A program made the position numbers and the translations under genes. Below, one piece after another: positions 1 to 32,477 of a stretch of DNA of 37,708 nucleotides; position 1 is the stretch's first letter, and every line of letters begins with the position of its first letter. The stretch comes from a virus, in IMG/VR virus record IMGVR_UViG_3300026255_000014, positions 1 through 37,708 of that record; one strand, given 5' to 3'. The notes below the pieces were generated by a model. The model was not told the DNA's origin. It worked only from the letters and a program-made list of their open reading frames with translations, and searched no databases.

Positions 1-312
1 CCGTTTTGTGGGAGGACACCGAATCCAGACTGGACTGATGAGAGCTACATAGAGTGTACAAATCGTAAATGTTCTCTTTATGGTTATGGAATGAGTACAG
101 GCGACTGGAACACCCGCCCAATTGAGGATGACCTTCGCAAGCGCATTGCCGAGTTGGAGGCGCTTGTTAATGTGTCGGAAGGTCTTTACGAGCGTATCTA
201 TGAGCAAGCAGCCCGCATTGCCGAGCTGGAGGCGGAGATTGTCCAACTTACCGCTCACGATGCTACAGAGCGGCAAGATGATAAGTGGATACCGGAGGTG
301 CAGGATGTGTAA
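1..312 (+). CDS. Lar-like zinc-ribbon protein, 5' truncated by window edge; duplicate copy of 37306..37638
   Basis: ORF track 91..312 translation is identical to the C-terminal part of 37306..37638; the frame is open back to position 1. Confidence 0.5.
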   Translation, partial: PFCGRTPNPDWTDESYIECTNRKCSLYGYGMSTGDWNTRPIEDDLRKRIAELEALVNVSEGLYERIYEQAARIAELEAEIVQLTAHDATERQDDKWIPEVQDV

Positions 313-382
313 CTTTTTCAGTTTTGTAACAGACCCAGTGAATCACCCAGCGGAGTATTACTACTTCGACTGGGAATATCGC
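1..382. repeat. Terminal redundancy, left copy; identical to 37327..37708
   Basis: Direct comparison of the first and last 382 nt of the window shows identity; implies a unit genome of about 37,326 bp. Confidence 0.9.
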
Positions 383-1069
383 AAGGCGCACCTAAACGAC
401 GATGGAGTGGACAGCCATTCGCATATCTGTGCATACTACCTCCTCAACGAGGATAGATGTAACAAATATGAGTTCAATCCGCTGACTGGAAGATTTGATA
501 TTGACCAAATCAACTCGGAGCGTGATGATTCAAATGCTGCAGAAAAGTGGGCGAAACGGCAGGACTTCAAAGAGATTGTCGAGACACTTATTATCAAGCC
601 GATTGTCAAACCGTTTGAGTTGCCAAAGGTAGAACAAGTGACAGATGAACAAATTGGCTGGCTGAAGGAGTGGGCTTCGGTCAGGGATTTGGTCGGGGCT
701 TCGGTCTGGGCTTTGGTCGGGGATTCGGTCAGGGATTCGGTCTGGGCTTTGGTCGGGGTTTCGGTCAGGGATTTGGTCTTGGATTCGGTCAGGGATTTGG
801 TCGGGGCTTCGGTCTGGGCTTCGGTCAGGGCTTCGGTCAGGGATTTGGTCGGGGCTTCGGTCTGGGCTTCGGTCAGGGATTCGGTCTGGGCTTCGGTCTG
901 GGCATATATCAGCAGTTTTTTCGCCATCAACTACAAATACAACTTTTCGTCTGTAGCAAATCTTTGGAACGCAGGGCTTGTACCCTCATTTGACGGTGAG
1001 ACATGGCGGTTGCATAGCAGCGAGAATGCGGATGTGGTTTACGAGTGGACGCCGGAGGTGCAGGAATGA
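305..1069 (+). CDS. Hypothetical protein with internal tetrapeptide tandem-repeat array and C-terminal WTPEVQE tail
   Basis: Same frame as ORF 122..1069; likely start ATG 305 sits 5 nt after GGAGGTG and overlaps the upstream stop. Ends in the conserved junction CCGGAGGTGCAGGAATGA. Frame assignment through the repeat is ambiguous. Confidence 0.5.
   Translation: MCNFFSFVTDPVNHPAEYYYFDWEYRKAHLNDDGVDSHSHICAYYLLNEDRCNKYEFNPLTGRFDIDQINSERDDSNAAEKWAKRQDFKEIVETLIIKPIVKPFELPKVEQVTDEQIGWLKEWASVRDLVGASVWALVGDSVRDSVWALVGVSVRDLVLDSVRDLVGASVWASVRASVRDLVGASVWASVRDSVWASVWAYISSFFAINYKYNFSSVANLWNAGLVPSFDGETWRLHSSENADVVYEWTPEVQE
672..899. repeat. 19 tandem copies of a 12-bp unit GGGNTTYGGTCN
   Basis: Read directly from sequence. 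No stop codons in any forward frame, which is why ORFs 122..1069, 670..993 and antisense 436..930 all cross it. Confidence 0.9.
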
Positions 1070-1395
1070 ACACGCTTAAACCCTGCCCGTTTTGTGGGAG
1101 GACACCGAATCCAGACTGGACTGATGAGAGCTACATAGAGTGTACAAATCGTAAATGTTCTCTTTATGGTTATGGAATGAGTACAGGCGACTGGAACACC
1201 CGCCCAATTGAGGATGACCTTCGCAAGCGCATTGCCGAGTTGGAGGCGCTTGTTAATGTGTCGGAAGGTCTTTACGAGCGTATCTATGAGCAAGCAGCCC
1301 GCATTGCCGAGCTGGAGGCGGAGATTGTCCAACTTACCGCTGATAGCACAGACGAGCGGAAAGATGATAAATGGATACCGGAGGTGCAGGAATGA
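1066..1395 (+). CDS. Lar-family-like zinc-ribbon protein (putative restriction alleviation), paralog B
   Basis: N-terminus MNTLKPCPFCG...C..RKC is a CxxC/CxxC zinc ribbon resembling Lar family proteins, followed by a coiled coil. Near-identical to 37306..37638 except the last ~12 codons. ATG 1066 overlaps the upstream stop (ATGA). Confidence 0.6.
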   Translation: MNTLKPCPFCGRTPNPDWTDESYIECTNRKCSLYGYGMSTGDWNTRPIEDDLRKRIAELEALVNVSEGLYERIYEQAARIAELEAEIVQLTADSTDERKDDKWIPEVQE

Positions 1396-1670
1396 TACCC
1401 AAAATTTCCAAAATTGTTAGCTGTGTTTGCGGATGTCATTTGGTCAAATTTGAGAAATGGACGGACGATGAAGGTGCGTGGATGATGATCTATGAGAACT
1501 CTTTTTACTCGAAACAGGGTGGAAGAATCAGGTCATATCTGAAACGGCTATGGTCAGCAATTCGAGGAAAAGAATATTTGCTGATGGAAATCAGCATGTC
1601 AGACGAGGATACTGTTGGGCTAAGAAATGCACTAATCGAGGCTACAACACCGCCGGAGGAAATCCAATGA
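1392..1670 (+). CDS. Hypothetical small cysteine-containing protein
   Basis: ORF track 1371..1670 with internal ATG 1392 overlapping the upstream stop; contains CVCGC. Confidence 0.5.
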   Translation: MIPKISKIVSCVCGCHLVKFEKWTDDEGAWMMIYENSFYSKQGGRIRSYLKRLWSAIRGKEYLLMEISMSDEDTVGLRNALIEATTPPEEIQ

Positions 1671-2014
1671 ACCGGACATACGAGGAGTGGGTTGAGAAGG
1701 TGACGGACAGCAGCGCGGACATTGCGCTCGCGGACATGCTGGCGGACTGGCAGGCGGACATCATCCGGCGAATGAAGGCTGAGCACGCGCTGAATAAGCG
1801 CATTGCCGAGCTTGAGGCGGAAATTGACCAACTTACCGCTGATAGCACAGACGAGCGGAAAGATGATAAGTTACCTGAGCGGGAAGTGTGTGAAGCCTGT
1901 GGGGGCGATGGCACATTGCTTTTAGTAGACAACTATAAAGGGCAAGCAACTGCAACTGTGGATTGTCCGTATTGCAACGGCACTGGACGTGTAAACAAGG
2001 AGTGTGAGAAATGA
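1667..2014 (+). CDS. Hypothetical protein with coiled coil and DnaJ-type CxxCxGxG zinc finger
   Basis: Translation contains CEACGGDG and CPYCNGTG; the coiled-coil segment RIAELEAEIDQLTADSTDERKDDK is shared with the Lar paralog at 1066..1395. ATG 1667 overlaps the upstream stop. Confidence 0.55.
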   Translation: MNRTYEEWVEKVTDSSADIALADMLADWQADIIRRMKAEHALNKRIAELEAEIDQLTADSTDERKDDKLPEREVCEACGGDGTLLLVDNYKGQATATVDCPYCNGTGRVNKECEK

Positions 2015-2271
2015 GCGAACAAAAACATCCGGATGATATGACGCGTGAGGAGTTGATAACCCTCGTGTTTGCAATGAGCTGGGCGGCGTTGGATTTAGCA
2101 CAACACTTGGATTTTACAACAAAAATGCTGAAAGAAGAATATCGAAAAGAAGCTTACAAAAAAGCGACACGAATGGCATATGAACTTGTTTTTCTTTGGG
2201 AAGTAGAACCAGATGAGAATAAAAATTCGGGGATACTTATTTTTGGTGAAAATGGATTGGAGCACGGGTGA
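2011..2271 (+). CDS. Hypothetical protein
   Basis: ORF track; ATGA overlap with upstream gene. Confidence 0.5.
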   Translation: MSEQKHPDDMTREELITLVFAMSWAALDLAQHLDFTTKMLKEEYRKEAYKKATRMAYELVFLWEVEPDENKNSGILIFGENGLEHG

Positions 2272-2585
2272 GCAAGTCAGCGCTTGAAGCAGAGTTAGCC
2301 TTGCAGATCAAGGCGTTGGGCTTGCCAGAGCCGATTCGCGAATACCAGGCAATCAAGGGGCGCAAGTTCCGCTTTGACTTCGCTTGGCTTGAGCACAGGT
2401 TGCTGGTGGAAGTGAACGGCGGCACTTACACGAAGGGTGCTCACTCTACAGGTCGGGGCATTGCGCGAGACTACGAGAAGGCGAACCTGGCTACGCTTGA
2501 CGGCTGGCGCGTGCTGATGTTTGACGGCAAGGCGGTGAAGTCGGGTGTAGCGGTTGAAGTGATTAGACAGGCGTTGGAGGCGTGA
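2268..2585 (+). CDS. Putative PD-(D/E)xK-type endonuclease (DUF559/Vsr-like motif pattern)
   Basis: GTG start overlapping the upstream stop; pattern FRFDFAW...LLVEVNGG...H...RD...L...GW.VLMF recalled from DUF559-like nuclease domains. Confidence 0.45.
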   Translation: MSKSALEAELALQIKALGLPEPIREYQAIKGRKFRFDFAWLEHRLLVEVNGGTYTKGAHSTGRGIARDYEKANLATLDGWRVLMFDGKAVKSGVAVEVIRQALEA

Positions 2586-2586
2586 G

Positions 2587-2793
2587 ATGGGATTTTGGGA
2601 AGAGTTGTTTTATGTCATGAAAATAGGCACGGTGGTTACCGTGTGTGGGCTGTTGGCAAGTTTGCCGATAGCGTTTATAGTGCACCTCGCGATTGAAAGA
2701 GGGTCATGGTTGTTAGGTGTTCTGGCGTTCTTTGTACTTATAGCGATTGCGAGTATAGCGGTTGTTATCCAAGAACGGTTGGAGGCTGAATGA
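2587..2793 (+). CDS. Small membrane protein (two predicted TM helices)
   Basis: Hydrophobic segments VVTVCGLLASLPIAFIV and LLGVLAFFVLIAIASIAVV. Confidence 0.5.
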   Translation: MGFWEELFYVMKIGTVVTVCGLLASLPIAFIVHLAIERGSWLLGVLAFFVLIAIASIAVVIQERLEAE

Positions 2794-2993
2794 ACCTGAT
2801 TGATTTCCTAAGCGAAGAGGACGCGGAAAAGCGGATTGAGGTGCAAGAGCGAATTGACGATCTTAGTCGCATAGAGAGAGCGATGCTGCATTTGTGGGTG
2901 GAAGGGTACACCCAGGCAGAGATTGCGCACATGTTTGGTTACTCGCAAGCCAGAATAAGCCAAATACTCAATGCGATTTATAAAAGCTGCTGA
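2790..2993 (+). CDS. Putative HTH transcriptional regulator (sigma-70 region 4-like)
   Basis: C-terminal YTQAEIAHMFGYSQARISQIL resembles a sigma region 4 / LuxR-type helix-turn-helix. Confidence 0.45.
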   Translation: MNLIDFLSEEDAEKRIEVQERIDDLSRIERAMLHLWVEGYTQAEIAHMFGYSQARISQILNAIYKSC

Positions 2994-3021
2994 AAAGTGG
3001 CTGTAGTATATAGAGACCATT

Positions 3022-3225
3022 GTGGAAACTAAACGTTGTGTTTGTGGAAAAGTTATAACGAGCCAATTTGATCTTTGCAACAAGTGTCAAGCAGAATACG
3101 GGCTTGACCGTTCTAAGTGGGATGATTGGCTTATTTTCATGGTTGCCGACTTGAAGCGAGAGCGTCGCCAACAAGCAATCATTGACGAACGCGAAATCCC
3201 GTTTTCAGAATTAGGAATTTATTAA
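3022..3225 (+). CDS. Small zinc-ribbon protein
   Basis: GTG start; CVCG...CNKC motif. Confidence 0.45.
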   Translation: METKRCVCGKVITSQFDLCNKCQAEYGLDRSKWDDWLIFMVADLKRERRQQAIIDEREIPFSELGIY

Positions 3226-3238
3226 CTCGGAGGCTTGA

Positions 3239-3571
3239 ATGGAATTTGACGTAACACTTTTAGGAATCGTAATCGGAATGATGGTACTGGCTAACCGCTT
3301 GGTGGCAATGCTCATTACTCCGCTGTGGGATAAGTACGGCTGGGACAAATTCTGGCTGGCTTATCCGGCCTGGATTCTATCGGGCGTGTTCGTGTGGCTG
3401 ACTGAAGTCAACCTATTCGCCGCGTTTATCCCGAACGCGCTTATCGGTCAAATTCTGACTGCCATTGTTGCAGGGGGCGGGTCAAATTTGCTCCACGACC
3501 TAACTGACAAGCCATCCAATCTGATTGCCGTGTTTGATGCGCTTGAAGATTACGAGGACGCTAACGGATGA
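3239..3571 (+). CDS. Membrane protein, possible holin
   Basis: 110 aa with multiple hydrophobic helices and an acidic C-terminus; holin assignment is an inference from size and topology only. Confidence 0.4.
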   Translation: MEFDVTLLGIVIGMMVLANRLVAMLITPLWDKYGWDKFWLAYPAWILSGVFVWLTEVNLFAAFIPNALIGQILTAIVAGGGSNLLHDLTDKPSNLIAVFDALEDYEDANG

Positions 3572-3996
3572 GCGAGAACGTCTGGGTCGCAATCATAGCA
3601 GCGGTGCTGGGCGGAGGCGGCTTAGGCGCGGCTATTGTGAATGCGCTTGCTAACCGCAAGAAAATCCAGGCGGACTGTGTAGCAACGCTATCATCCGCAT
3701 ACGAAACGAGGATAAACGCTCTCAATAAGCGGGCGGATGAGTTGGCGGCGAAGGTGGACGTCTTAGAGGCGCAAGTCTGTGGCTTGCGTTCTGCATTGTC
3801 AGACAGGGAAGCAATGATTGTGAATTTGCAGCAGGAAAATGTTGATTTGCAGGCGCAAGTGGACAAGTTGAGCAAGGTGGTCAACAACAAGGATAAGCGT
3901 ATTCGGGAATTAGAGCGACAGGTCGCTGACCTGACCACGCGTCTTAATGCGATGAATGGTGGAAGCGGTGAGGCTTGGCTCGGTGGTACTGATTGA
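3568..3996 (+). CDS. Membrane-anchored coiled-coil protein
   Basis: N-terminal TM segment WVAIIAAVLGGGGLGAAIV followed by a long heptad-rich region. Confidence 0.5.
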   Translation: MSENVWVAIIAAVLGGGGLGAAIVNALANRKKIQADCVATLSSAYETRINALNKRADELAAKVDVLEAQVCGLRSALSDREAMIVNLQQENVDLQAQVDKLSKVVNNKDKRIRELERQVADLTTRLNAMNGGSGEAWLGGTD

Positions 3997-4059
3997 CTTC
4001 AAGGGCGGACGTGAGTGCCTGTGGACGTACTCTCGCTTACTTGAAAAGACGAGGATTAT

Positions 4060-4233
4060 TTGGAAACGATCAAATTTGATGCAGTAGTTTATAAATTACA
4101 GACATTGGCTGACGGTGGAATCAGAATCACGCTTGATATGAGCGAGACCTCGATTCCTCAAATGGCAATGTTAGCAGAAACCAAACGACAGGGTTTGGCT
4201 CTTTCGTTTGAAGCGAAGGCGAGCGGCAGTTAG
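4060..4233 (+). CDS. Possible small ORF (57 aa, TTG start)
   Basis: Hand translation of otherwise empty DNA between 3996 and 4237; no motif support. Confidence 0.2.
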   Translation: METIKFDAVVYKLQTLADGGIRITLDMSETSIPQMAMLAETKRQGLALSFEAKASGS

Positions 4234-4236
4234 TTT

Positions 4237-4584
4237 ATGGCTTATGCGCCAGCAAGACAATGTGTTGTGCCAGGATGTCCGAATCTTGTGACAGAGCCTG
4301 GTGTTAGCCGTTGTCCAGAACATCAAAAACAATACAAAAAAGAGTTGACAAGACCGCGTGATGTCAAATACACGAGTCAACGATGGCGCAAGACCTCGAA
4401 GGTGTTTTTGAGTCGCAATCCAATTTGTGAACGTTGTGGTGAGCCGAGTGAGATCGCACACCACATTATTCGTAAGCGTGATGACGGGGCAGACGACTTC
4501 GACAATCTGGAAGCACTTTGCCGAAAGTGTCATGAAGCCGAACATCATGCAAGCGGTGAAAGGTGGGGTAGGCGTGCGAGGTAG
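4237..4584 (+). CDS. HNH homing-type endonuclease
   Basis: CxxC...CxxC plus HH..RKRDDG...N...LC..CH arrangement typical of the HNH fold; canonical position just upstream of the terminase small subunit. Confidence 0.8.
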   Translation: MAYAPARQCVVPGCPNLVTEPGVSRCPEHQKQYKKELTRPRDVKYTSQRWRKTSKVFLSRNPICERCGEPSEIAHHIIRKRDDGADDFDNLEALCRKCHEAEHHASGERWGRRAR

Positions 4585-5071
4585 AACGCCATTGCCAGAT
4601 GCTTTGAAAGAAGCACAGGGAACGCTGAAGAAGAGCCGAGTAAATGACTCTCAGGCTCGTTTTGACGTACCTAAAGACTCACCGAAACCGCCGACAACGC
4701 TCAATCTCTATGGCAAGCGGTTGTGGAAAGAAATGCTGCCAAAGTTGGTTGAAACAGGTCTTTATACCGAAGGTGATCACCAGGCGTTTGAATTGCTTTG
4801 CATGGCTTATGGTGATCTGATTCAGGCACGCAAAGACCTTAAAGAGTCGGGTACGATTGTTATCACAGACAAGGGCACGGTTTATCAGCACCCTAACGTT
4901 GGGATCGCAAACCAGGCTTGGAATCGGGTGAAACTGATGTTGGGGCAGTTTGGGCTGACACCAGCAGAGCGGACACGAGTAAAAGCACGCTCACCCGAAG
5001 AGAAAAGGGGCAGTTTGGCAGAATCGTTGTTTGCTGCTGCACGTGAAAAGGTTGAGGGTGAGACTGAGTGA
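4574..5071 (+). CDS. terS: Terminase small subunit (P27-family-like)
   Basis: Motif GQFGLTPAERTRVKA and N-terminal RGRTPLP resemble P27-family TerS. Start uncertain: GTG 4574 follows an AGGTGGGG SD; ATG 4547 and 4532 are in-frame alternatives. Confidence 0.7.
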   Translation: MRGRTPLPDALKEAQGTLKKSRVNDSQARFDVPKDSPKPPTTLNLYGKRLWKEMLPKLVETGLYTEGDHQAFELLCMAYGDLIQARKDLKESGTIVITDKGTVYQHPNVGIANQAWNRVKLMLGQFGLTPAERTRVKARSPEEKRGSLAESLFAAAREKVEGETE

Positions 5072-6375
5072 GTGCAAATCTGTATTTAGGTGACTGTCTG
5101 GAAGTCTTATCAACGCTTGAAGCGGATAGCATTGACACCTGCATCACTGACCCGCCTTACGAGTTAGGTTTCATGGGTAAGAAGTGGGATTCAAGCGGCA
5201 TTGCGTTCCAGCCTGAAACTTGGCAAGCCGTATTCAGGGTGCTGAAACCAGGTGCAATTCTGCTTGCCTTCGGCGGCACTCGCACCTATCACCGCATTGC
5301 TTGCGCTATTGAGGACGCTGGCTTTGAAATCCGTGACACTATCGCTTGGGTATACGGGAGCGGATTCCCTAAAAGTTACGACATAAGTAAGGGAATTGAC
5401 AAACAAGCTGGAGCTGAAAGGGAAATAGTAGGCTACAAGGAAACATCAACTTATCCAGATAGCGATGGTGTTGCTCATTACAAAAACAGGCAACAAAGCA
5501 ATGGTTCTCAAGTCAATACAGGAGGTATGCCAGAAATCACCGCGCCCTCCACCCCCGAAGCGCAACTCTGGGATGGCTGGGGCACGGCGTTGAAGCCTGC
5601 CTTTGAGCCGATAGTTGTTGCGATGAAGCCGATTGACGGCACGTTTGTCAACAACGCGCTCACTTGGGGCGTGGCTGGCTTGTGGATTGACGGGGGTAGG
5701 GTGGGGACGTCAAAAAACGTTCCTGCATCACCAAGCGATAAAGGCACTCTGCAATGTAAAGGTTTGGGCGGTGGATGGGATAGAAGCGGAATGAATCCGA
5801 ACATTGGTCGCTTCCCTGCCAACTTGATTCACGACGGCTCGGATGAGGTGGTGAGTGGGTTTCCGAATACTACGAGCGGCAAGGTTGCGGCTGGAACTAT
5901 GCGAGGCTTGAAAAGCAATCACAATGTGGCATACGCAGACATCGCCGCCGGAACTGAATTGACTGGCTACGGCGACTCTGGCTCAGCCGCGCGCTTTTTC
6001 TACTGTGCGAAAGCCAGCCGAAGCGAGCGCAACGCTGGGCTGGAGGGGATGGAAGAAAAGGTCGGCGGTGGAATGAAGGGCACGGAAGACCAAACGCTTT
6101 TGACTGGCTCTGGAAACATCCGCAACAATAAAATGCAAAACCACCATCCCACCGTCAAGCCAATCGAACTGATGCGCTACCTTGTTCGGCTTACCAAAAC
6201 GCCAACAGGCGGGGTGGTACTTGACCCGTTCATGGGGTCTGGCACGACTGGCATTGCTTGCGTGTTGGAAGGACGCGAGTTTATCGGAATTGAGCGGGAA
6301 GCGGAGTATGTCGAGATTGCAGAAAAGCGGATTGCGCATTACAGGTTGCCGATATTGGAAGAAGTGATCGAGTGA
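5068..6375 (+). CDS. DNA methyltransferase (N6-adenine/N4-cytosine, beta-class order)
   Basis: N-terminal DPPY (ITDPPYELGF) and C-terminal AdoMet motif LDPFMGSGTTGIA. Confidence 0.85.
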   Translation: MSANLYLGDCLEVLSTLEADSIDTCITDPPYELGFMGKKWDSSGIAFQPETWQAVFRVLKPGAILLAFGGTRTYHRIACAIEDAGFEIRDTIAWVYGSGFPKSYDISKGIDKQAGAEREIVGYKETSTYPDSDGVAHYKNRQQSNGSQVNTGGMPEITAPSTPEAQLWDGWGTALKPAFEPIVVAMKPIDGTFVNNALTWGVAGLWIDGGRVGTSKNVPASPSDKGTLQCKGLGGGWDRSGMNPNIGRFPANLIHDGSDEVVSGFPNTTSGKVAAGTMRGLKSNHNVAYADIAAGTELTGYGDSGSAARFFYCAKASRSERNAGLEGMEEKVGGGMKGTEDQTLLTGSGNIRNNKMQNHHPTVKPIELMRYLVRLTKTPTGGVVLDPFMGSGTTGIACVLEGREFIGIEREAEYVEIAEKRIAHYRLPILEEVIE

Positions 6376-8966
6376 AAAAGTACGATCCCTGGAATTGCGA
6401 CCTTGATAAGTACGAATTTGACCCTGTGGCTGGGCAGGTTGCAGTCGACTTTATTGAAAATTATATTACCCATGTCAAAGGGGAGTTAGGCGGCAAGCCT
6501 TTTTTGCTTTTGGAGTGGGAAAAGGATTTTGTAAGAAACCTTTTCGGTTGGAAAGAAAAGGAAACAGGTTATCGGCGTTACCGTGAGGCGTTTGTATTTG
6601 TGGCACGGAAAAATGGCAAAGCATTAGAAGTCAATACTCCGATTCTGACTACTACAGGTTGGAAGAAACACGGCGATTTAGTCCCTGGAGACTTTGTTTT
6701 TTCTCCTGATGGCGTACCCGCAAAGGTTATCTATTCTACTCCTCATTATGAGGGGAATTGTTATTTTGTGGATTTCTCAGGCGATGAAGCAATTATCGCT
6801 CACGAAAATCACGAATGGAAAACTAACCGCACCTGGTATACAGGAAAGCCCAAATGGATAGAAGGTGAAAAGCCTTTGGTTACCACTAAGCGGATTGCGG
6901 AAACTCTACGATGTGGGAAACGCCAAGACCTTGTGCATTCTGTGGATGTTGCGAAACCGATACAGTTTGAGCCAAAAGAATACACAATACCCCCGTATGT
7001 TTTAGGCGTTTGGCTTGGCGATGGCGACTCTGACAGTTGCAGGATCACGATTGCAGAACCTGAAATTGTCCAGAAGCTATCTGATTATGGTTATCCAGCC
7101 GAATATAGATCAAGATACCGACACCTTGTTGGACGGGGGAAGTTTCAAAAGCAACTGCGTGAAAAGGGCTTACTGGGCAATAAGCATATACCACAAGAAT
7201 ACTTGCTTGGTTCAGTTGAGCAAAGGATCGACCTCTTGCGCGGATTGATGGACACAGACGGTTATGTGTCTTCGGCTGGACAATGCGGAATTGCATTAAC
7301 CGACGGTAATTTGTTTCGCCAAGTTGTCGAATTAATTACAGGCTTGGGATTAAAGCCTCGCGTAATGATTGATCGTGCTCAGTTAAATGGGGTTGACTGC
7401 GGAGTTAGATATAGAGTCCACTTCTATGCCTATCAAGACACGCCAATAGCATATATTGAGCGAAAAGCCAAACGGCAAAAAGAAACTCCAAAAACAAGGC
7501 GGCGCAGCCAGACTCGGATGATTTCAAATGTTACGCCCGCAGGTAAGCAAACAGTCAACTGCATCACAGTCGAAGGCGGGATGTATCTCGCAGGAAAGCA
7601 ACTTATCCCAACTCACAACTCACCTCTTGGGGCTGCCATCGCGCTTTATCTGTTGATTGTAGACAATGAGCCTGGTGCAGAGTTGATCTCTGTAGCAGCA
7701 GACCGAGACCAGGCACGGGCGATTTTTGACACGGCTCGTTTTATGGTAAAGCAAAACGCCGCCCTGGACGAATTGGTTAGTGCATATCGAAATGCGATTG
7801 TCGCTAAGCAAGGGGCTTCAGTTTACAAAGTTGTTTCATCGGATGCTGGCACTAAGCATGGTGGAAACTTACATGCTGCGCTTTTTGACGAGTTGCACGC
7901 TCAGAAGAACCGAGACCTTTACGATGTTGTGCAAACCAGTTTTGGCGCGCGCCGTCAACCACTGCTGATTTCTTTTAGTACGGCAGGGTTTGATCGTGAG
8001 TCGATCTGCTATGAAGTTTACTCAATGGCAAAGCAGATTTCTGAGGGCATAATCCAGCGAGATTGGTTTTACCCCGTAATATACGAGGCATCGCCAGAAG
8101 ACGATTGGACAAGCGAAGATACGTGGAAGAAAGCCAATCCGAGTTTGGGACACTCGATCAAGATTGATTACCTGCAGAAGAATTATGAAAAGGCTCTATC
8201 AAGCCCGCAGTTCCAAAACACTTTCAAGCGTTTGTATCTCAATATGTGGACATCGGCAGAAACACGCTGGCTTGATATGCAAAACTGGGACAAATGCGGT
8301 GAGCAACCGATTGACATGGGACTGCTTGAAGGGGCTGAATGTTACGGCGGTCTTGACCTTGCGACAGTTTCTGACATTGCTGCTTTTGTACTGGATTTCC
8401 CGAATGAAAGCGGTGAAGAGGAATTGCACACCTGGCTTCCGACCTTGTTCTGTCCAGAGTCAAAGTTGACCGACCCAGGTTTCATTGACCGCGACATTTA
8501 CAGGGCTTGGGCTGACCAGGGCTATTTGATTGCAACGCCTGGAAACGTGATTGACTACGAGTACATCATTGCTGAAATTGAGCGATTAGGTGAACTTTAC
8601 AACATTAAAGAGATCGCATTTGACCGTTGGGGTGCTGCACAGATTTCACAAACGCTTACCAATATGGGCTTTACTTTGGTTGGTTTTGGTCAAGGGTACG
8701 TGAGCATGTCACCACCCACAAAAGAAGTTGAGCGGTTGATATTACAAGGCAGGGTGAGACATGGAAACCACCCTGTAATGCGTTGGATGGCGGATAACGT
8801 TATGGTTACGACTGACCCTGCAGGGAATATCAAGCCAGACAAGAAGAAAAGCAGGCAGAAGATTGACGGCGTGGTTGCGGCAATCATGGCAACCGATAGG
8901 GCAATTAGAAATTCTGTAGGTCGCAAGGACTCTGTTTACGAAAAAAGAGGGTTGGTTGTTCTATGA
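6372..8966 (+). CDS. terL: Terminase large subunit, interrupted by an in-frame intein
   Basis: 864 aa; removing residues 84..416 yields the P-loop ARKNGKS and a Walker B-like LLIVDNE with a C-terminal nuclease-like domain. GTG start overlaps the upstream stop. Confidence 0.9.
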   Translation: MKKYDPWNCDLDKYEFDPVAGQVAVDFIENYITHVKGELGGKPFLLLEWEKDFVRNLFGWKEKETGYRRYREAFVFVARKNGKALEVNTPILTTTGWKKHGDLVPGDFVFSPDGVPAKVIYSTPHYEGNCYFVDFSGDEAIIAHENHEWKTNRTWYTGKPKWIEGEKPLVTTKRIAETLRCGKRQDLVHSVDVAKPIQFEPKEYTIPPYVLGVWLGDGDSDSCRITIAEPEIVQKLSDYGYPAEYRSRYRHLVGRGKFQKQLREKGLLGNKHIPQEYLLGSVEQRIDLLRGLMDTDGYVSSAGQCGIALTDGNLFRQVVELITGLGLKPRVMIDRAQLNGVDCGVRYRVHFYAYQDTPIAYIERKAKRQKETPKTRRRSQTRMISNVTPAGKQTVNCITVEGGMYLAGKQLIPTHNSPLGAAIALYLLIVDNEPGAELISVAADRDQARAIFDTARFMVKQNAALDELVSAYRNAIVAKQGASVYKVVSSDAGTKHGGNLHAALFDELHAQKNRDLYDVVQTSFGARRQPLLISFSTAGFDRESICYEVYSMAKQISEGIIQRDWFYPVIYEASPEDDWTSEDTWKKANPSLGHSIKIDYLQKNYEKALSSPQFQNTFKRLYLNMWTSAETRWLDMQNWDKCGEQPIDMGLLEGAECYGGLDLATVSDIAAFVLDFPNESGEEELHTWLPTLFCPESKLTDPGFIDRDIYRAWADQGYLIATPGNVIDYEYIIAEIERLGELYNIKEIAFDRWGAAQISQTLTNMGFTLVGFGQGYVSMSPPTKEVERLILQGRVRHGNHPVMRWMADNVMVTTDPAGNIKPDKKKSRQKIDGVVAAIMATDRAIRNSVGRKDSVYEKRGLVVL
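6621..7619 (+). mobile_element. Intein (333 aa) with LAGLIDADG homing endonuclease domain inside the TerL Walker A motif
   Basis: Begins ALEVNTPILT, contains LGVWLGDGDS and LLRGLMDTDGYV, ends ...LIPTHN followed by Ser; splicing restores ARKNGK|SPLG. Confidence 0.8.
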
Positions 8967-9172
8967 GTTTATTTGGATGGTTTGCAGAATTGAGACCAGT
9001 TATTGTCAACACAAAGTTTGGCAAGGATTTCAGGGGCGTTGTTTGGAAGAAAACAAACGACTGCATCGTTCTGAAAAACGCAGAGTGGTTGTCGCCTGAT
9101 GGGGCGAAAAAACTGGATGGTGAAACAATCATCTTCATCAAAGAAATCGAATTTATACAGGCGGTCTCATGA
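8963..9172 (+). CDS. Hypothetical protein
   Basis: ORF track; ATGA overlaps with both TerL and portal. Confidence 0.5.
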   Translation: MSLFGWFAELRPVIVNTKFGKDFRGVVWKKTNDCIVLKNAEWLSPDGAKKLDGETIIFIKEIEFIQAVS

Positions 9173-11115
9173 CAACGATTATTTCAGAAACTAACCTAAT
9201 AACGATGCCAGCGAATTGGTGGACAAACGCAAACAACATCACGCTTTCATCGGTGCGATCCGATTACAACTTCGATTATTTGGCGATGTACAGGAATCAC
9301 ATGAACGTGAGGATTTGCGTTGATTTCCTGGCTCGAAATATCGCTCACCTGGGGCTGCACGTTTACACGCGAAAAGAAGACAATGACAGAGAGCGATTGC
9401 GAGACCACAGGGCGGTACAAATTCTGAAACAACCGCTGCCGGCAAAGTTTAAGGTGACACAGTTCCAACTGGTTGAATCGGCAGTCGCAGACATGCTGAT
9501 CAGCGGTAATGGTTATTTACTCAAACACAGAAACGGTGAGGGTGAGATCATCGCGCTTCAGCGTGTGCCTTATATGCTTATGAGTGTCAAGGGCGAGTTA
9601 GTTCCTACGAAATACAAAATTGGCTATATCGAGAAAGAGTACAAGCCAGAAGATATTATCCATTTTCGATTTTACAACCCTGAGAACTCTACCATCGGCG
9701 TTTCACCGCTTGAAGGTTTGCGCGAAGTGTTGGCTGAAGAATGGGAAAAGTCGAAGTACAGTTCTGGTTTCTGGCGGAATGCCGCTCGTATTTCTGGTGT
9801 GATCGAAAGACCGCTGGAAGCAAAAGAAATGAGCGAAGCAGCAGCACGCAACTTCCGTCAGCAATGGCAGGAAATGTATGCAGGTGAAGACAACAGCGGC
9901 AAGACTGCTTTGTTGGAAGAGGGCATGGTTTTCAAACCGATGTCGTTCAGCCCGAAAGAAACTGAGTATATCGAGAGCAGAAAACTAAACCGAGAAGAAT
10001 GCGCGAGAGCATATCACATCCCCCCGCCAATGGTCGGAATTTTAGATCGCAGTACGTTCTCGAACATTACCGAGTTGCACAAGTCGCTTTACATGGATGT
10101 GCTTAGTCCAATGTGTGCCAGACTTGAGGACGATTGGGATTTGCAGTATTTGAGTGAGTTCAAAGATTTGAAGGGCGCATACACTGAGTTCAATATTGAC
10201 GAAAAACTACAGTCTGATTTCAGTATGCAACTTGAGTCACTACGGCAGTCTGTGGGCGTGCCTTACATGACACCGAACGAAGGTCGTGCGATTCTGAACC
10301 TTCCACGTTTGAAGAACCCCCTGGCTGACACCCTGGTTACCCCTCTCAATATGGCAACCCCTGAAATGGTTATGCGACAACAACAGAACAAAAGTGAAAT
10401 GCCAATAATTGAGACTAAGGCATCGGCTGAGTCTATCATGCCAGAATATCCCGACCTGGACAAAGACTTTGGTGAGAAATGGCACAAGTTGATGGTGAAC
10501 GTTTTTACACGCCAGAGAGACGCAGTGTTACCAAAAGCGAAGATGGACAAGTTGGATGTGCTTTGGGACAAAGAGCGTTGGGACAGGGAAGTCGCTGAGG
10601 ACTTTCTGAAACTTGCGGAAGAAACCGCCTGGGCTTATGCGGATGCTTTTGCAGGGCAGTTAGGCGCAGAGTACAAGCGCGAGTGGATGGAAAAATGGTT
10701 GCAGGAAAACTCCAGGATTGCCGCTGAATATATCAACGCCAGCACCTACGACCAGCTCGCAAAGGCGATGCAGGGTGAAAATCCAGTTGACGCAATCAAA
10801 GAGGTGTTTGCGTCAGCATTGGCGGTAAGAGCGGTGCAATTGGCTGAGGATCGCCGCGCGATGGTGGAAAGTTATGTTGAAGCAAAGATTGCAGATGCGG
10901 TTGATTCCGTTATCGGGAAGATTTGGACAGTTAGAAGCAACAACCCCCGCCCAGAACACGAGAAGATGAATGGCGAGTTTATTGAGAAAAGGGAAGTGTT
11001 TTCAAACGGACTACAGTACCCACGAAGTTACAAGGGTAGTGCTAAAGACAATGCCAACTGTAAATGTAAGGTGATGTGGGTCAGAAAACCTGTAGACACC
11101 ACGCCTTTGAGGTGA
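9169..11115 (+). CDS. Portal protein with C-terminal MuF-like (minor head protein) domain
   Basis: Central region resembles HK97-family portals; C-terminus carries RPEHEKMNGEF, a MuF-like motif. Confidence 0.75.
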   Translation: MTTIISETNLITMPANWWTNANNITLSSVRSDYNFDYLAMYRNHMNVRICVDFLARNIAHLGLHVYTRKEDNDRERLRDHRAVQILKQPLPAKFKVTQFQLVESAVADMLISGNGYLLKHRNGEGEIIALQRVPYMLMSVKGELVPTKYKIGYIEKEYKPEDIIHFRFYNPENSTIGVSPLEGLREVLAEEWEKSKYSSGFWRNAARISGVIERPLEAKEMSEAAARNFRQQWQEMYAGEDNSGKTALLEEGMVFKPMSFSPKETEYIESRKLNREECARAYHIPPPMVGILDRSTFSNITELHKSLYMDVLSPMCARLEDDWDLQYLSEFKDLKGAYTEFNIDEKLQSDFSMQLESLRQSVGVPYMTPNEGRAILNLPRLKNPLADTLVTPLNMATPEMVMRQQQNKSEMPIIETKASAESIMPEYPDLDKDFGEKWHKLMVNVFTRQRDAVLPKAKMDKLDVLWDKERWDREVAEDFLKLAEETAWAYADAFAGQLGAEYKREWMEKWLQENSRIAAEYINASTYDQLAKAMQGENPVDAIKEVFASALAVRAVQLAEDRRAMVESYVEAKIADAVDSVIGKIWTVRSNNPRPEHEKMNGEFIEKREVFSNGLQYPRSYKGSAKDNANCKCKVMWVRKPVDTTPLR

Positions 11116-24057: not shown

Positions 24058-25470
24058 ATGACTTATCCGTTCGGCATTGACATTTCGGCTTACCAATACT
24101 CACAAGACGGCTCACGAAAGCCCGACTTCGACCTAATCAACGAAAAGTGTGACTTCGTTGCCGTGCGTGCTGGCATCAGTTGGGGGTACACCGACAAGTG
24201 GTTTGAGTATTCGTGGTCACACGTTCTCAGACCGAGGCTGGGGTATCACGTGGTTTACCCTGGCGAGAGTGCGACTGCACAAATGAAACACTTTCTCAAC
24301 ATCGTGCATCCAACTCAGAATGACCGCCTTGTGCTTGATATGGAACTCGACCACGGCTATAGCAAGGCTCGAATCACAAAAACGCTTGTGGACTGTATGA
24401 ACATTATACAGACAGAGACGGGGCGTTATCCTGTGATTTACAGCAGGGCTTATTGGATTAACCAGTTTGTAGACGTGAACGCTTTGCCAGAAAAGACCGA
24501 CTGGTGGTTAGCAAACTACCTGCGTTCTAATCCCGACCCGTATTTCACGCCAGAGATGACACCGCCGCCTATGTTGCCAAACGGTGTGAAGAATTGGCTC
24601 ATCCATCAAACGTCAAAAGAACAGGACGGCAGTAAGGTGGGCGTGGTTAGTCACTATGTGGACACTAATCGTTGGAACGGTACACACGATGAGTTGCTGG
24701 CTTACTTCGGTTACGATGAGCAACCAGAGCCTGAACCTGAACCTGAACCGGAAGAGCCTTTGTTCCAAGCACGCGTTTACAGCTGGGCGACTCCCTACGT
24801 CAACGTGAGAGCCGAACCTTCATTAAGCGCAGGGAAAGTCGGCTTCAAATACCCGTTAGCGGTGACCGATGTTATGAGCACGATGCCTGACTGGTACGAA
24901 GTGCCCGAAGGCTGGATGATGTCTCGATTCTTAGAACGGCTTGACTATGACCCGCCCGCCACGATGCTTGCAATCAAGCCGCTCTCACAAAGAGACACGC
25001 GCTGGGCTTCTCACAAACTCGGTTATTCCTATTACACGATAGGCGGTTACGGATGCCTTATCACAGCTATCAGTATGATACTGAACTGGTACGGCAAGCA
25101 GACCGACCCGGCGCAACTCAATGACGCTTTGGTTAGGGTGGGCGGTTTCACGGGTGCAAACCTTTATTGGAACGCAATCGCGCAAGTTCAGCCTGACATT
25201 TACCTTGCAAAGGCTATCGACTGCTACTATATTCCAGCACCCTTGCACGAAATAGACGCTCTGCTTGCGGATGACGTTCCCGTCTTGGTGCACGTTGACT
25301 TCACGCCGGGTGGCGCGGTAGATCAGCATTGGGTGCTGATTGTCGGCAAGTCGGGCGATGATTACATCATCAATGACCCGTGGACTGGGGAGCAAGGTAG
25401 TTTCCGCACTCGTTATGGCGATCCTGCCCGCTGGATATTCCGCATCAGGGCGTATCGGAGGCAAGCATGA
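24058..25470 (+). CDS. Modular endolysin: GH25 muramidase, (EP)n linker, C-terminal C39-like cysteine peptidase
   Basis: N-terminal FGIDISAYQ typical of GH25; linker EPEPEPEPEPEEP; C-terminal GYGCLITAISM and DQHWVLIVG suggest a papain-like Cys/His pair. Confidence 0.8.
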   Translation: MTYPFGIDISAYQYSQDGSRKPDFDLINEKCDFVAVRAGISWGYTDKWFEYSWSHVLRPRLGYHVVYPGESATAQMKHFLNIVHPTQNDRLVLDMELDHGYSKARITKTLVDCMNIIQTETGRYPVIYSRAYWINQFVDVNALPEKTDWWLANYLRSNPDPYFTPEMTPPPMLPNGVKNWLIHQTSKEQDGSKVGVVSHYVDTNRWNGTHDELLAYFGYDEQPEPEPEPEPEEPLFQARVYSWATPYVNVRAEPSLSAGKVGFKYPLAVTDVMSTMPDWYEVPEGWMMSRFLERLDYDPPATMLAIKPLSQRDTRWASHKLGYSYYTIGGYGCLITAISMILNWYGKQTDPAQLNDALVRVGGFTGANLYWNAIAQVQPDIYLAKAIDCYYIPAPLHEIDALLADDVPVLVHVDFTPGGAVDQHWVLIVGKSGDDYIINDPWTGEQGSFRTRYGDPARWIFRIRAYRRQA

Positions 25471-28426: not shown

Positions 28427-28698
28427 CATTACAAAATCCATTGAAAGACCCTTCCGCAGTGCTGGATTATGTGTTCGACTGGACGGAATGGCTGGCAACC
28501 GGCGAAACAATCACCGACCATACTATCACAGCCGACACGGGTATCACCGTTGACAGTTCGACTGAATCAGACGGCAAAGTTACCGTCTGGCTCTCAGGCG
28601 GTACGGCTGGTATCAATTACAAAGTGGCGTGCCTGATTACAACGTCCGCAGGGCGAACCGACGAGCGCACAATCTGGATCAAGGTGGTCGAAAGGTGA
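28417..28698 (+). CDS. Small conserved-looking phage protein (possible fiber-associated)
   Basis: Pattern DYVFDWTEWL...VTVWLSGGTAG.NYKV recalled as a recurrent phage family; function unknown. Confidence 0.35.
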   Translation: MSLTLQNPLKDPSAVLDYVFDWTEWLATGETITDHTITADTGITVDSSTESDGKVTVWLSGGTAGINYKVACLITTSAGRTDERTIWIKVVER

Positions 28699-31493: not shown

Positions 31494-31494
31494 T

Positions 31495-31713
31495 ATGCCC
31501 GTCTACGTTTACCATTGTGACAATTGCCTGAAGCAGACCGAGATATTTCAACACTTCACCGATGACCCGATAACCGTGTGCCCTGAGTGTAAACAGCCGA
31601 CTTTGCAGAAAGTGTATCAGGTTGCGAACGTGCATTACAAGGGCAATGGCTTCTATGTCACGGATAAACGAGGGGCTGAACAAGTGTCGGGGGAGTCTTC
31701 GGACAACTCATAA
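31495..31713 (+). CDS. FmdB-family-like zinc-ribbon protein
   Basis: MPVYVYHCDNC...CPEC...GNGFYVTD matches the FmdB-type zinc ribbon pattern. Confidence 0.65.
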   Translation: MPVYVYHCDNCLKQTEIFQHFTDDPITVCPECKQPTLQKVYQVANVHYKGNGFYVTDKRGAEQVSGESSDNS

Positions 31714-31742
31714 CGCGGGGGCAGTACCCGCCAGCTCCACTA

Positions 31743-31780
31743 AAAGAGCACCAGCTAAATTGTAGGTGCTCTTTCGTTTT
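31743..31780 (+). terminator. Rho-independent terminator closing the late operon
   Basis: AAAGAGCACC-loop-GGTGCTCTTT followed by CGTTTT. Confidence 0.7.
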
Positions 31781-31781
31781 A

Positions 31782-31855
31782 AGTATTGTATTCGAGTATT
31801 GTAATTAAGTATTGTAAGACGCATCCCATTTTAAGTATTGATTTCAGGTATTGTA
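31782..31855. repeat. Five direct copies of RGTATTGW (AGTATTGTA core), iteron-like
   Basis: Copies at about 31782, 31795, 31808, 31834, 31847. Confidence 0.7.
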
Positions 31856-32029
31856 ACGCCTTCTTCTGCCATTGCCTTATCAAGCAGGTTGCGTAGAGTA
31901 CGGCTGATCCCCTGTGGCTGTGACGTAAAAAAAGGGGGTAAAAACAGGGGTTATTATAATATCGCATAATTACACCTTATTATAATACAACGCTTATTTT
32001 AGGGGTATTTTATCGCTTGCAATGGCCAC

Positions 32030-32101
32030 GGGTTCAGGGTTCAGGGTTCAGGGGTTCACGATCTCAGGGTTCAGGGTTCAGCGTCCAGGGGTAGGGGGGG
32101 G
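32030..32101. repeat. Tandem GGGTTCA heptamer array ending in a G8 run
   Basis: GGGTTCA x3, GGGGTTC, gap, GGGTTCA x2, degenerate copies, then GGGGTAGGGGGGGG. Confidence 0.85.
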
Positions 32102-32214
32102 CGAAATCTCTACCGCGCAAGCCCCCCGAGCGCGCGCGTAATCTTAGGCACGCGAGGGCAAATATCCGACAGGGGGTTAATCTTACCAATTATTCAAGAA
32201 ATCCCGAAAAACAC

Positions 32215-32242
32215 TTGACTTTTGCTTTAATTTGTGTATAAT
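32215..32242 (+). promoter_or_regulatory. Sigma-70-type promoter, near consensus (probable early promoter)
   Basis: TTGACT (32215..32220), 16-nt spacer, TATAAT (32237..32242); RBS TAAGGAGC and ATG at 32284 downstream. Confidence 0.65.
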
Positions 32243-32475: not shown

Positions 32476-32477
32476 CG

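What the first reader, a model, noticed from the sequence alone, without database searches (positions are those of the whole stretch)
3239..3996. Holin-like and membrane-anchored coiled-coil genes located far from the endolysin
A multi-TM 110-aa protein and a TM-anchored coiled-coil protein sit just upstream of the packaging module, about 20 kb from the endolysin, and no holin-like gene flanks the endolysin. Either lysis genes are split, or these are membrane proteins with a different role such as superinfection exclusion.
Basis: inference. Interest (0 to 1): 0.4.

Follow-up and report, generated by a model that had tools for sequence, protein, structure and literature searches.

The report
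Holin-like pair split from its endolysin
Two small membrane-protein genes just before the DNA-packaging genes of this uncultured phage are most likely its cell-bursting (holin-type) proteins, sitting 20 kb from the wall-degrading enzyme they serve; the protein family is unnamed, but the mechanism it implies is a familiar one.

Summary
ORF 3239-3571 (110 aa, three predicted membrane helices) and ORF 3568-3996 (142 aa, one N-terminal membrane helix plus a ~110-residue helix) overlap by ATGA. They lie after a sigma-70-region-4-like gene and before HNH, TerS and TerL. The only peptidoglycan hydrolase I found is at 24058-25470 (GH25 + C39-like). It has no signal or membrane segment and no membrane-protein neighbour, here or in 10 related endolysin loci.

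Comparative evidence favours the split-lysis reading. The 110-aa protein belongs to a large unannotated family: 277 clusters at 50% identity, no Pfam hit, PHROG 20258 of unknown function. In five independent viral lineages its homolog lies within 0.1-2 kb of a wall hydrolase gene. One contig carries the cassette gpA-like, gpB-like, 67-aa ORF, GH25, upstream of terminase. The gene after it is nearly always a single-pass protein predicted N-out/C-in. That orientation is opposite to an i-spanin, and no o-spanin gene is present.

The closest characterised analogue is the mycobacteriophage LysF1a/LysF1b (D29 LysA2a/LysA2b) pair. Function is inferred, not shown. I rate this a new variant of a known kind, of modest interest.

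The parts
3239..3571 (+). gpA: 110-aa, three-helix membrane protein with a short acidic C-terminal amphipathic helix. Proposed holin (class I-like N-out/C-in topology) of an undescribed family.
   Evidence: ORF. AF2 pLDDT 92.7, helices 5-33/37-55/67-90/93-109. Family-wide K+R is concentrated in loop 1 and the C-tail and is near zero in the N-tail and loop 2. Family size is 339 close hits and 277 clusters at 50% identity. Of 45 diverse members, 21 hit PHROG 20258, unknown function. Homologs lie next to wall hydrolases in L009, L063, L080, L088, L096 and L102.
3568..3996 (+). gpB: 142-aa single-pass protein with an N-terminal Gly-rich TMD (residues ~5-27), an NRKK stop-transfer and a ~110-residue helix. 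Proposed partner of gpA (co-holin or lysis regulator), translationally coupled to it through ATGA.
   Evidence: AF2 helix 19-131. Only coiled-coil-type family hits, plus sub-threshold Rz-like ones. 46 homologs. About 38 of 47 distinct downstream neighbours of gpA homologs share this architecture, with 0 K/R before and 2-4 K/R after the TMD. A homolog (27% id, E 6e-12) sits between the gpA-like gene and GH25 in L088.
24058..25470 (+). Endolysin: N-terminal GH25 muramidase plus C-terminal C39-like cysteine peptidase domain. Cytoplasmic, with no signal, SAR or TM segment, so it should need a membrane hole to reach the wall.
   Evidence: No membrane-protein neighbour here or in 10 related loci.
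2790..2993 (+). 67-aa Sigma70 region-4-like HTH protein upstream of the pair. A candidate late-gene regulator (context only; its role is inferred).
   Evidence: Pfam Sigma70_r4 E 2.8e-7 and PHROG sigma factor E 7e-11. An HTH gene keeps this position in L001 and in L009/L010.
3022..3225 (+). 67-aa Cys-rich (zinc-ribbon-like) protein immediately upstream of gpA. Conserved in this position; function unknown.
   Evidence: tblastn hits in 34 loci, always just upstream of the gpA homolog. Only weak zinc-ribbon Pfam hits.
2587..2793 (+). 68-aa protein with two hydrophobic segments. A possible accessory membrane protein (second holin or antiholin, or unrelated). Not conserved.
   Evidence: No family hit. 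Found only in 3 near-identical contigs, L012-L014.
4237..5071 (+). HNH endonuclease (4237-4584) and small terminase subunit (ORF 4427-5071): the start of the packaging module that the pair precedes.
   Evidence: PF01844 E 2.4e-12; Terminase_4 E 4e-23; PHROG 83 E 3e-38.

Best explanation
gpA and gpB are the membrane arm of this phage's lysis system, encoded apart from the endolysin.

Proposed sequence of events:
1. Both proteins are made from the head of the late transcription unit. This is inferred from their position after a sigma-r4-like gene, the same strand as the terminase genes, and the ATGA coupling between them.
2. gpA inserts with three transmembrane helices, N-terminus out and C-terminus in. 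It accumulates in the cytoplasmic membrane and at a set time forms the lesion that lets the cytoplasmic, signal-less GH25/C39-like endolysin (24058-25470) reach the wall.
3. gpB inserts with a very short N-terminus outside and a long helical rod in the cytoplasm. It acts on gpA as an obligatory partner or timing regulator, as the 1-TMD LysF1b/LysA2b proteins do for the 2-TMD LysF1a/LysA2a proteins of mycobacteriophages.

What is shown: the ORFs, their predicted architecture, the conserved pairing, the conserved position before terminase, the adjacency to wall hydrolases in other lineages, and the absence of any other conserved membrane-protein gene in the genome.

What is inferred: hole formation, the division of labour between gpA and gpB, the topology, and late expression.
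For: (1) Linkage to lysins in other lineages. The gpA-family gene lies within 0.1-2 kb of a peptidoglycan hydrolase gene in five independent viral lineages:
- L009/L010/L073: a 571-aa protein sits directly upstream. Its C-terminal domain is 39% identical over 142 aa (E 1e-22) to the window endolysin's C39-like domain.
- L063: GH25, E 1e-26.
- L080 and L088: GH25, E 2e-30 and 7e-28.
- L096: SLT-domain protein, E 7e-11, directly upstream.
- L102: a C39-like relative, E 5e-10 to the L009 domain.

(2) A complete cassette. L088 carries gpA-like (63% id, E 5e-43), gpB-like (27% id, E 6e-12), a 67-aa ORF and GH25, upstream of TerS/TerL.

(3) A conserved pairing. About 38 of 47 distinct genes immediately downstream of gpA homologs encode a single N-terminal TMD plus a helical tail. 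They fall into at least two mutually dissimilar sequence types. Architecture is kept while sequence is swapped, which argues for a functional pair.

(4) Topology. gpA has three membrane helices at high confidence, with positive charges in loop 1 and the C-tail. That matches the class I holin topology.

(5) A need for a hole. The endolysin has no export signal. No membrane-protein gene flanks it here or in 10 related loci.

(6) Faint sequence links to lysis families:
- The alternative partner type hits PHROGs annotated 'bacteriocin production or immunity' at E 2e-6, which I take (own knowledge) to be the BhlA/UviB group.
- The same partner type hits Pfam Holin_BhlA at E 9e-4, below the cutoff.
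- Diverse gpA-family members give faint hits to holin PHROGs and to Phage_holin_5_2.

(7) Experimental precedent. Multi-TMD plus 1-TMD N-out/C-in lysis pairs are described, including an ATGA overlap and genes in separate genome regions (PMC13056207; bioRxiv 10.64898/2026.08.27.747656).
Against: - No experiment has been done.
- gpA itself has no significant match to any Pfam, NCBIfam or PHROG holin family.
- There is no significant structural match in BFVD or PDB.
- Its C-terminal tail is acidic (7 D/E, 1 K). As I recall (own knowledge), well-studied holins such as lambda S have a basic tail.
- In the window's own lineage, and in most relatives at 62% identity or more, the lysin is not adjacent. 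The association therefore rests on five lineages, and two of those lysins (L009, L102) are not confirmed by Pfam.
- One homolog is a solitary chromosomal gene in an Anaerolineaceae MAG.
- Topology comes only from hydropathy, AF2 and the positive-inside rule.
- A near-invariant Cys at position 37, just after the gpB TMD, would be easier to explain if that side were extracytoplasmic.
Confidence: 0.65

Rival explanations
1. The roles are reversed or shared. gpB, with one TMD and a large soluble domain, is the hole-former (formally like a class III holin or a BhlA-type one-TMD holin). gpA is its antiholin, chaperone or regulator.
For: One-TMD proteins can be the more important partner: deleting lysF1b or lysA2b gives the severe lysis defect. 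The alternative partner type shows a sub-threshold Holin_BhlA match and PHROG 1625/2429 matches. gpB's TMD is Gly-rich (GGGG).
Against: gpA is much the more conserved and constant member of the pair. The partner is swapped between unrelated sequence types, and in some loci a 2-TM protein is inserted between them. In L135, L120 and L059 my ORF maps show no single-pass ORF directly after the family gene.
Confidence: 0.12
2. The pair has a non-lysis membrane role, such as superinfection exclusion, blocking of DNA injection, membrane anchoring of replication or assembly, or host takeover. The linkage to lysins elsewhere is a by-product of both sitting at the early/late boundary before terminase.
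For: gpA has no sequence membership in any holin family. The lysin is not adjacent in the window lineage. A solitary homolog is kept in a bacterial chromosome next to tRNA genes, as a moron might be.
Against: In L096, L009 and L088 the hydrolase gene is inside the same tight gene string as the family gene, not merely nearby. Without gpA/gpB the genome has no conserved way to release a signal-less endolysin. No integrase or repressor turned up among the proteins I scanned, and all genes lie on one strand, so prophage-expressed exclusion is not an obvious need. Not every ORF was scanned.
Confidence: 0.12
3. gpB is an i-spanin (Rz-like). It would bridge the periplasm to disrupt an outer membrane, with gpA as the holin.
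For: The architecture fits: an N-terminal TMD plus a coiled coil. There are weak matches to Rz-like families: PHROG 739 at E 5e-5, TIGR03495 LysB at E 9e-4 with 19.5 bits against a cutoff of 92.75, and PHROG 312 at E 1e-4 for the L064 partner. The conserved Cys37 could form a disulfide if it were periplasmic.
Against: No o-spanin exists: no ORF with a lipoprotein signal is embedded in, overlaps or follows gpB. The flanking charges predict N-out/C-in in nearly all partners (0 K/R before and 2-4 K/R after the TMD), the reverse of the established N-in/C-out Rz. The matches are at the level of dozens of unrelated coiled-coil families. The one host clue is a 252-kb Anaerolineaceae contig (Chloroflexota), a phylum generally regarded as lacking an outer membrane (own knowledge).
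Confidence: 0.05
4. The real holin is the 68-aa two-TMD protein at 2587-2793 (class II-like), and gpA/gpB are accessory.
For: Its size and two hydrophobic segments fit a class II holin or pinholin. It lies in the same gene string, 450 nt upstream.
Against: It is found only in three near-identical contigs and is absent from all other relatives that keep gpA/gpB and similar endolysins. It has no family hit. It lies upstream of the sigma-like gene, not with the pair.
Confidence: 0.06

Closest known systems
Mycobacteriophage LysF1a/LysF1b (cluster F1: Girr, NormanBulbieJr) and D29 LysA2a (gp11)/LysA2b (gp30) holin-like lysis regulators (PMC13056207; bioRxiv 10.64898/2026.08.27.747656)
   Same: A multi-TMD small protein is paired with a single N-terminal-TMD protein predicted N-out/C-in, with an elongated, charged, helical cytoplasmic tail. 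In the expression constructs of those studies the tandem genes overlap by ATGA. In D29 the lysis membrane genes are dispersed in the genome, away from the lysins. The 1-TMD protein is described as distinct from class III holins and spanins.
   Different: gpA has three predicted TMDs, not two. gpB is longer (142 against about 88 aa) and has a long coiled coil. I did not test sequence relationship. The host is not an actinobacterium, as far as can be told. Here the pair stays together and the endolysin is the gene that sits elsewhere.
Class I holins such as lambda S105 (three TMDs, N-out/C-in), and the lambdoid layout with lysis genes at the head of the late operon just before the terminase genes
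   Same: Small size, three TMDs and the predicted N-out/C-in topology. A hydrophilic C-terminal tail. Position downstream of a late-regulator-like gene and directly upstream of the packaging genes.
   Different: No sequence or significant structural similarity to any holin family. No dual-start motif. The tail is acidic, not basic. No endolysin or spanin genes follow it.
BhlA/UviB one-TMD holin-like proteins (Pfam PF10960)
   Same: A single N-terminal TMD followed by a charged helical tail. The alternative partner found after gpA homologs (L001/L044 type) matches PHROG 1625/2429 (E 2e-6) and Holin_BhlA (E 9e-4).
   Different: The Pfam match is below the gathering score (19.6 against 22.6 bits) and concerns the alternative partner, not gpB. 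Holin_BhlA was not among the 25 best of gpB's 101 Pfam hits, the only ones listed.
Rz-type i-spanins (lambda Rz, P2 LysB)
   Same: An N-terminal TMD plus a coiled-coil rod, encoded in a lysis context.
   Different: The predicted orientation is opposite. There is no o-spanin partner gene. Sequence matches are only at coiled-coil noise level.
Phages with dispersed lysis genes (T4 t/e/rI; Campylobacter Fletchervirus/Firehammervirus, PMC7692668)
   Same: The holin and endolysin are not in one cassette.
   Different: The protein families are different. Here, relatives with an intact cassette show that the split is lineage-specific.

Membership tests
Holin (functional class; class I topology) | Small (about 60-150 aa) integral membrane protein with one or more TMDs; three for class I, N-out/C-in | tested here: met
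   110 aa. AF2 helices 5-33, 37-55 and 67-90 at pLDDT 92.7. Hydropathy. The family-wide charge distribution puts loop 1 and the C-tail inside. This is prediction only.
Holin (functional class; class I topology) | Hydrophilic, highly charged C-terminal tail | tested here: met
   Residues 86-110 carry 7 D/E and 1 K. The tail is charged but acidic, and it is absent in short homologs such as L088.
Holin (functional class; class I topology) | Gene adjacent to or near the endolysin gene | tested here: not met
   It lies 20 kb away in the window. The criterion is met for homologs in five other lineages. This is a usual feature of holins, not a strict one.
Holin (functional class; class I topology) | Lethal, energy-poison-triggerable membrane hole that releases the endolysin | not testable with these tools
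   Needs expression experiments.
Described holin sequence families (Pfam, NCBIfam and PHROG holin models) | Significant profile match | tested here: not met
   gpA has no hit. Among 45 diverse members the best are Phage_holin_5_2 at E 0.028 (2 members) and holin PHROG 1299 at E 0.004 (2 members). 21 members hit PHROG 20258, of unknown function.
Two-component spanin (Rz/Rz1 type) | i-spanin with N-in/C-out topology and a periplasmic coiled coil | tested here: not met
   The TMD and coiled coil are present. The charges (0 K/R in the N-flank; NRKK after the TMD) predict N-out/C-in, as in nearly all partners. This is a prediction, not a measurement.
Two-component spanin (Rz/Rz1 type) | Cognate o-spanin: a small lipoprotein gene embedded in, overlapping or following the i-spanin gene | tested here: not met
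   No ORF with a lipoprotein signal between 3400 and 4300, in any frame or from any alternative start, nor near the endolysin.
LysF1b/LysA2b-type 1-TMD lysis regulators | Single N-terminal TMD, N-out/C-in, elongated charged helical cytoplasmic domain, paired with a multi-TMD holin-like protein | tested here: met
   ATGA coupling to gpA. The comparison is with the published descriptions, so it concerns architecture only.
LysF1b/LysA2b-type 1-TMD lysis regulators | Sequence homology to LysF1b or D29 gp30 | not tested
   No LysF1b or gp30 sequence was compared.
BhlA/UviB holin family (PF10960) | Pfam match above the gathering score | tested here: not met
   Holin_BhlA was not among the 25 best of gpB's 101 Pfam hits, the only ones listed. 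The alternative partner in L044 scores 19.6 bits against a cutoff of 22.6.

The most novel reading that the evidence does not exclude
gpA and its single-pass partner define a widespread, undescribed two-component holin system: a 3-TMD core with the conserved motifs NRLVE, P-x-F-x-K and GGG(A/S)N-x-x-HD, plus an exchangeable N-out/C-in protein with a cytoplasmic rod about 17 nm long. It would be used by phages of uncultured, possibly Chloroflexota, hosts. The core would be constant, the rod would be swapped as a module to set lysis timing, and the endolysin could be moved or replaced independently.
Probability: 0.3. Interest if true: 0.5.

Novelty: new variant of a known kind. Interest (0 to 1): 0.35.

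Why it matters
If correct, this gives a function to a sizeable family of phage membrane proteins that current libraries leave blank: 277 clusters at 50% identity, no Pfam model, and a PHROG of unknown function. Lysis cassettes in many metagenomic phage genomes could then be annotated.

It would also add a second, phylogenetically remote example of the multi-TMD plus N-out/C-in one-TMD lysis pair, so far studied only in mycobacteriophages. That would suggest the arrangement is a general solution, not an actinobacteriophage oddity.

For this genome it explains how a signal-less endolysin with no neighbouring holin could be released. It does not change any principle of phage lysis.

Tried and rejected
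- **Cultured phages.** Megablast of 2500-6500 and tblastn of gpA against 50,697 phage records found nothing. Portal relatives are 38% identical at best, in Arthrobacter phages.
- **Host from MAG labels.** Three of four genome hits are short contigs binned to unrelated phyla, so I treat them as unreliable. Only the 252-kb Anaerolineaceae contig is informative, and there the homolog is a lone gene near tRNA-Lys and tRNA-Asn.
- **Sampling distant family members by exact-protein look-up.** This returned contigs of only 0.5-1.7 kb. I replaced it with degenerate-motif DNA scans of viral contigs.
- **Structure searches.** BFVD and PDB gave no significant match for gpA. Several weak 'Holin' entries have E of 0.4 or more and I do not count them.
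- **Uncharacterised neighbours.** Pfam, PHROG and PDB-sequence searches of the putative lysins of L009 (571 aa), L072 (377 aa) and L102 (611 and 236 aa; Pfam only) found nothing. L009 and L102 are called lysin-like only through homology to the window endolysin's C39-like domain. L072 is not counted.
- **Promoter and terminator scan of 1500-5200.** It gave nothing interpretable.
- **tRNA scan of the window.** None found.
- **o-spanin search.** Negative.

Full report
**Observation.** gpA is 3239-3571 (+, ATG, 110 aa). gpB is 3568-3996 (+, ATG, 142 aa). They overlap by ATGA. A Kyte-Doolittle scan of every + strand ORF of 40 aa or more finds hydrophobic segments in only four real genes: a 68-aa ORF (2587-2793), gpA, gpB and the tape-measure protein. 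A rescan at 30 aa or more adds a 38-aa ORF at 32478-32594.

AlphaFold2 with a 45-sequence alignment models gpA at pLDDT 92.7, with helices at 5-33, 37-55, 67-90 and 93-109. gpB is modelled as a short helix (3-14), a GGGG break and a single helix from 19 to 131.

**Genome context.**
- Upstream lie a Sigma70-region-4-like 67-aa protein (2790-2993) and a small Cys-rich protein (3022-3225).
- Downstream come HNH (4237-4584), TerS (ORF 4427-5071), an N6/N4 methyltransferase, TerL (6372-8966), portal and capsid.
- The only peptidoglycan hydrolase found among the proteins I scanned is 24058-25470. It has GH25 plus a Peptidase_C39_2-like domain.
- Its N-terminus has no signal or SAR segment, and its flanks leave gaps of only 44-108 nt.
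- The window carries an exact 382-bp terminal direct repeat, so it is probably a complete genome of about 37.3 kb. All ORFs called as genes are on one strand.
- No integrase appeared among the proteins I scanned.

**What gpA is.** gpA has no significant hit in Pfam, PHROGs or NCBIfam. It still belongs to a large family. There are 339 close relatives among 5.8 billion clustered proteins, none given a function by its source. An exhaustive profile search finds 277 clusters at 50% identity with E of 0.001 or less.

The family alignment keeps the three hydrophobic helices and several polar motifs:
- N-R-L-V-E at the end of helix 1
- P-x-F-x-K in loop 1
- V-N-L-F after helix 2
- L-T-A-x-x-x-G-G-G-(A/S)-N-x-x-H-D at the end of helix 3

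Across the family, K+R averages 0.13 in the N-tail, 2.2 in loop 1 (plus R20), 0.13 in loop 2 and 2.3 in the C-tail. By the positive-inside rule this gives N-out/C-in with three TMDs, the class I holin topology.

Twenty-one of 45 diverse members match PHROG 20258, of unknown function. Holin models appear only faintly: Phage_holin_5_2 at E 0.028 and PHROG 1299 at E 0.004, two members each. Foldseek against BFVD and PDB gives no significant match.

**Neighbourhoods.** This is the main evidence. In close relatives the order is HTH gene, small protein, gpA, single-pass protein, packaging genes (L001; L012-L045). The endolysin is not within the flanks held.

In more distant lineages the family gene lies beside a wall hydrolase:
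- **L009/L010/L073** (56% identity to gpA). A 571-aa protein ends 91 nt upstream. Its C-terminal domain is 39% identical over 142 residues (E 1e-22) to the C39-like domain of the window endolysin. After the family gene come a 2-TM protein, a one-TMD helical protein and TerS.
- **L063.** The order is family gene, TM plus coiled-coil protein, a 292-aa protein, then GH25 at E 1e-26.
- **L080 and L088** (63% identity). GH25 at E 2e-30 and 7e-28 lies about 0.6 kb downstream.
- **L096.** A 463-aa SLT-domain protein (E 7e-11) ends 163 nt upstream, itself preceded by a 79-aa one-TMD protein.
- **L102.** The family gene is followed by a TM protein, a 611-aa protein and a 236-aa protein. The last is related to the L009 C39-like domain (E 5e-10). 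TerS and TerL follow.

L088 is the clearest case. It carries gpA-like (63% id, E 5e-43), gpB-like (27% id, E 6e-12, TMD included), a 67-aa ORF and GH25, followed by terminase.

Conversely, ten loci encoding relatives of the window endolysin (37-100% identity) have no same-strand membrane-protein ORF within 2.5 kb. The split is therefore a stable feature of this endolysin's lineage.

**The partner.** Over the 75 loci then in hand, the gene directly after the family gene encodes 47 distinct proteins. About 38 have one N-terminal TMD followed by a helical tail. They have no K/R before the TMD (net charge 0 to -3) and 2-4 K/R in the next 15 residues.

They fall into at least two dissimilar sequence types: the gpB type, and an 'MTGGELLP...' type. 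The second type matches PHROGs 1625 and 2429, annotated 'bacteriocin production or immunity', at E 2e-6. It also matches Pfam Holin_BhlA below threshold, at E 9e-4. Some loci insert a 97-99-aa 2-TM protein between the two.

Keeping the architecture while swapping the sequence argues for a functional pair. The predicted N-out/C-in orientation puts the rod in the cytoplasm.

**Spanin reading.** gpB gives weak matches to Rz-like models: PHROG 739 at E 5e-5, and TIGR03495 at 19.5 bits against a cutoff of 92.75. These sit among about 100 coiled-coil families of similar score.

No ORF with a lipoprotein signal is embedded in, overlaps or follows gpB. The predicted orientation is the reverse of Rz. 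The single host clue is a 252-kb Anaerolineaceae contig carrying a lone homolog beside tRNA-Lys and tRNA-Asn. Chloroflexota are generally regarded as lacking an outer membrane (own knowledge).

One point runs the other way. A near-invariant Cys lies 10 residues after the gpB TMD. It would be easier to explain on the outside of the membrane. I rate the spanin reading at about 5%.

**Mechanism proposed.** gpA and gpB are made together at the start of the late genes. gpA is the hole-forming core. gpB is its partner or timer. The hole releases the cytoplasmic GH25/C39-like endolysin encoded 20 kb away. Only the anatomy and the comparative linkage are shown; the rest is inferred.

[quoted passage not shown] Its D29 counterparts are LysA2a and LysA2b, which are encoded in different regions of the genome (PMC13056207; bioRxiv 10.64898/2026.08.27.747656). 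Dispersed lysis genes are also reported for Campylobacter phages (PMC7692668).

**Rivals.**
- The roles of gpA and gpB could be reversed.
- The pair could have a non-lysis membrane role such as exclusion.
- The non-conserved 68-aa two-TMD ORF could be the true holin, but it is present in only three near-identical contigs.

**Verdict.** This is a new variant of a known kind: an unannotated holin-like family working with a one-TMD partner, and separated from its endolysin in this lineage. It is useful for annotation and is a candidate for a simple expression test. It is not surprising in principle. Interest 0.35.

Noticed in passing
window 1-382 and 37327-37708: The first and last 382 bp are identical (an exact terminal direct repeat), so the window is probably a complete genome of about 37.3 kb, either circularly assembled or terminally redundant. 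The first 40 bp also recur at 1087.
   Followed up: partly
window 6372-8966: The large terminase is 864 aa. It carries a homing-endonuclease (Hom_end, PF05204) segment at residues 273-350, and its best ATPase-domain match starts only at residue 420, which suggests an intein in TerL.
   Followed up: no
window 2587-2793: A 68-aa ORF with two hydrophobic segments and no family match, present only in three near-identical contigs (L012-L014). It could be a second holin or antiholin, or an unrelated moron.
   Followed up: partly
window 32478-32594: A 38-aa ORF (MLDQLFDFIVGFGIICIPMMIGAVVAGIIETRRERRGR) with one hydrophobic segment and a very basic tail, in the early region. No PHROG hit.
   Followed up: no
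window 24058-25470: The endolysin combines GH25 with a C-terminal C39-like cysteine-peptidase domain. The same C-terminal domain recurs on otherwise unrelated, unannotated putative lysins: L009 at 2298-4013 (571 aa, no Pfam, PHROG or PDB hit) and L102 at 6181-6891.
   Followed up: partly
window 5068-6375, 28629-30185, 34018-34980: Three DNA methyltransferase genes in a 37-kb genome. One of them (N6_N4_Mtase) is wedged between TerS and TerL.
   Followed up: no
window 1045-1395 and 37306-37638: Two paralogous ORFs that both match the DUF551-annotated gene of L001. Some database entries fuse a DUF551 domain to the C-terminus of gpA homologs (P0006, P0020).
   Followed up: no
window 31494-32683: A 1.2-kb stretch with only short ORFs (72 aa or fewer) between the exonuclease gene and the early genes. 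It may be a regulatory or origin region.
   Followed up: no
L007 9784-10107 (Anaerolineaceae MAG, 252-kb contig): A solitary gpA homolog (about 50% identity) in an ordinary chromosomal neighbourhood, about 520 bp from tRNA-Lys and tRNA-Asn. It could be a remnant of an integrated element. It is the only host clue.
   Followed up: partly
window 9169-11115: The portal protein is 648 aa. Its best cultured relatives (Arthrobacter phages, 35-38% identity) are annotated as portal and MuF-like fusion proteins.
   Followed up: no
L088 about 4245-4710 and L080 about 1930-2395: Directly after the GH25 gene, the ORF translations look like read-through of tRNA genes (for example ...GLVQLEERRFCKSDVEGSSPS...). 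This suggests phage-encoded tRNAs between the lysis cassette and terminase.
   Followed up: no
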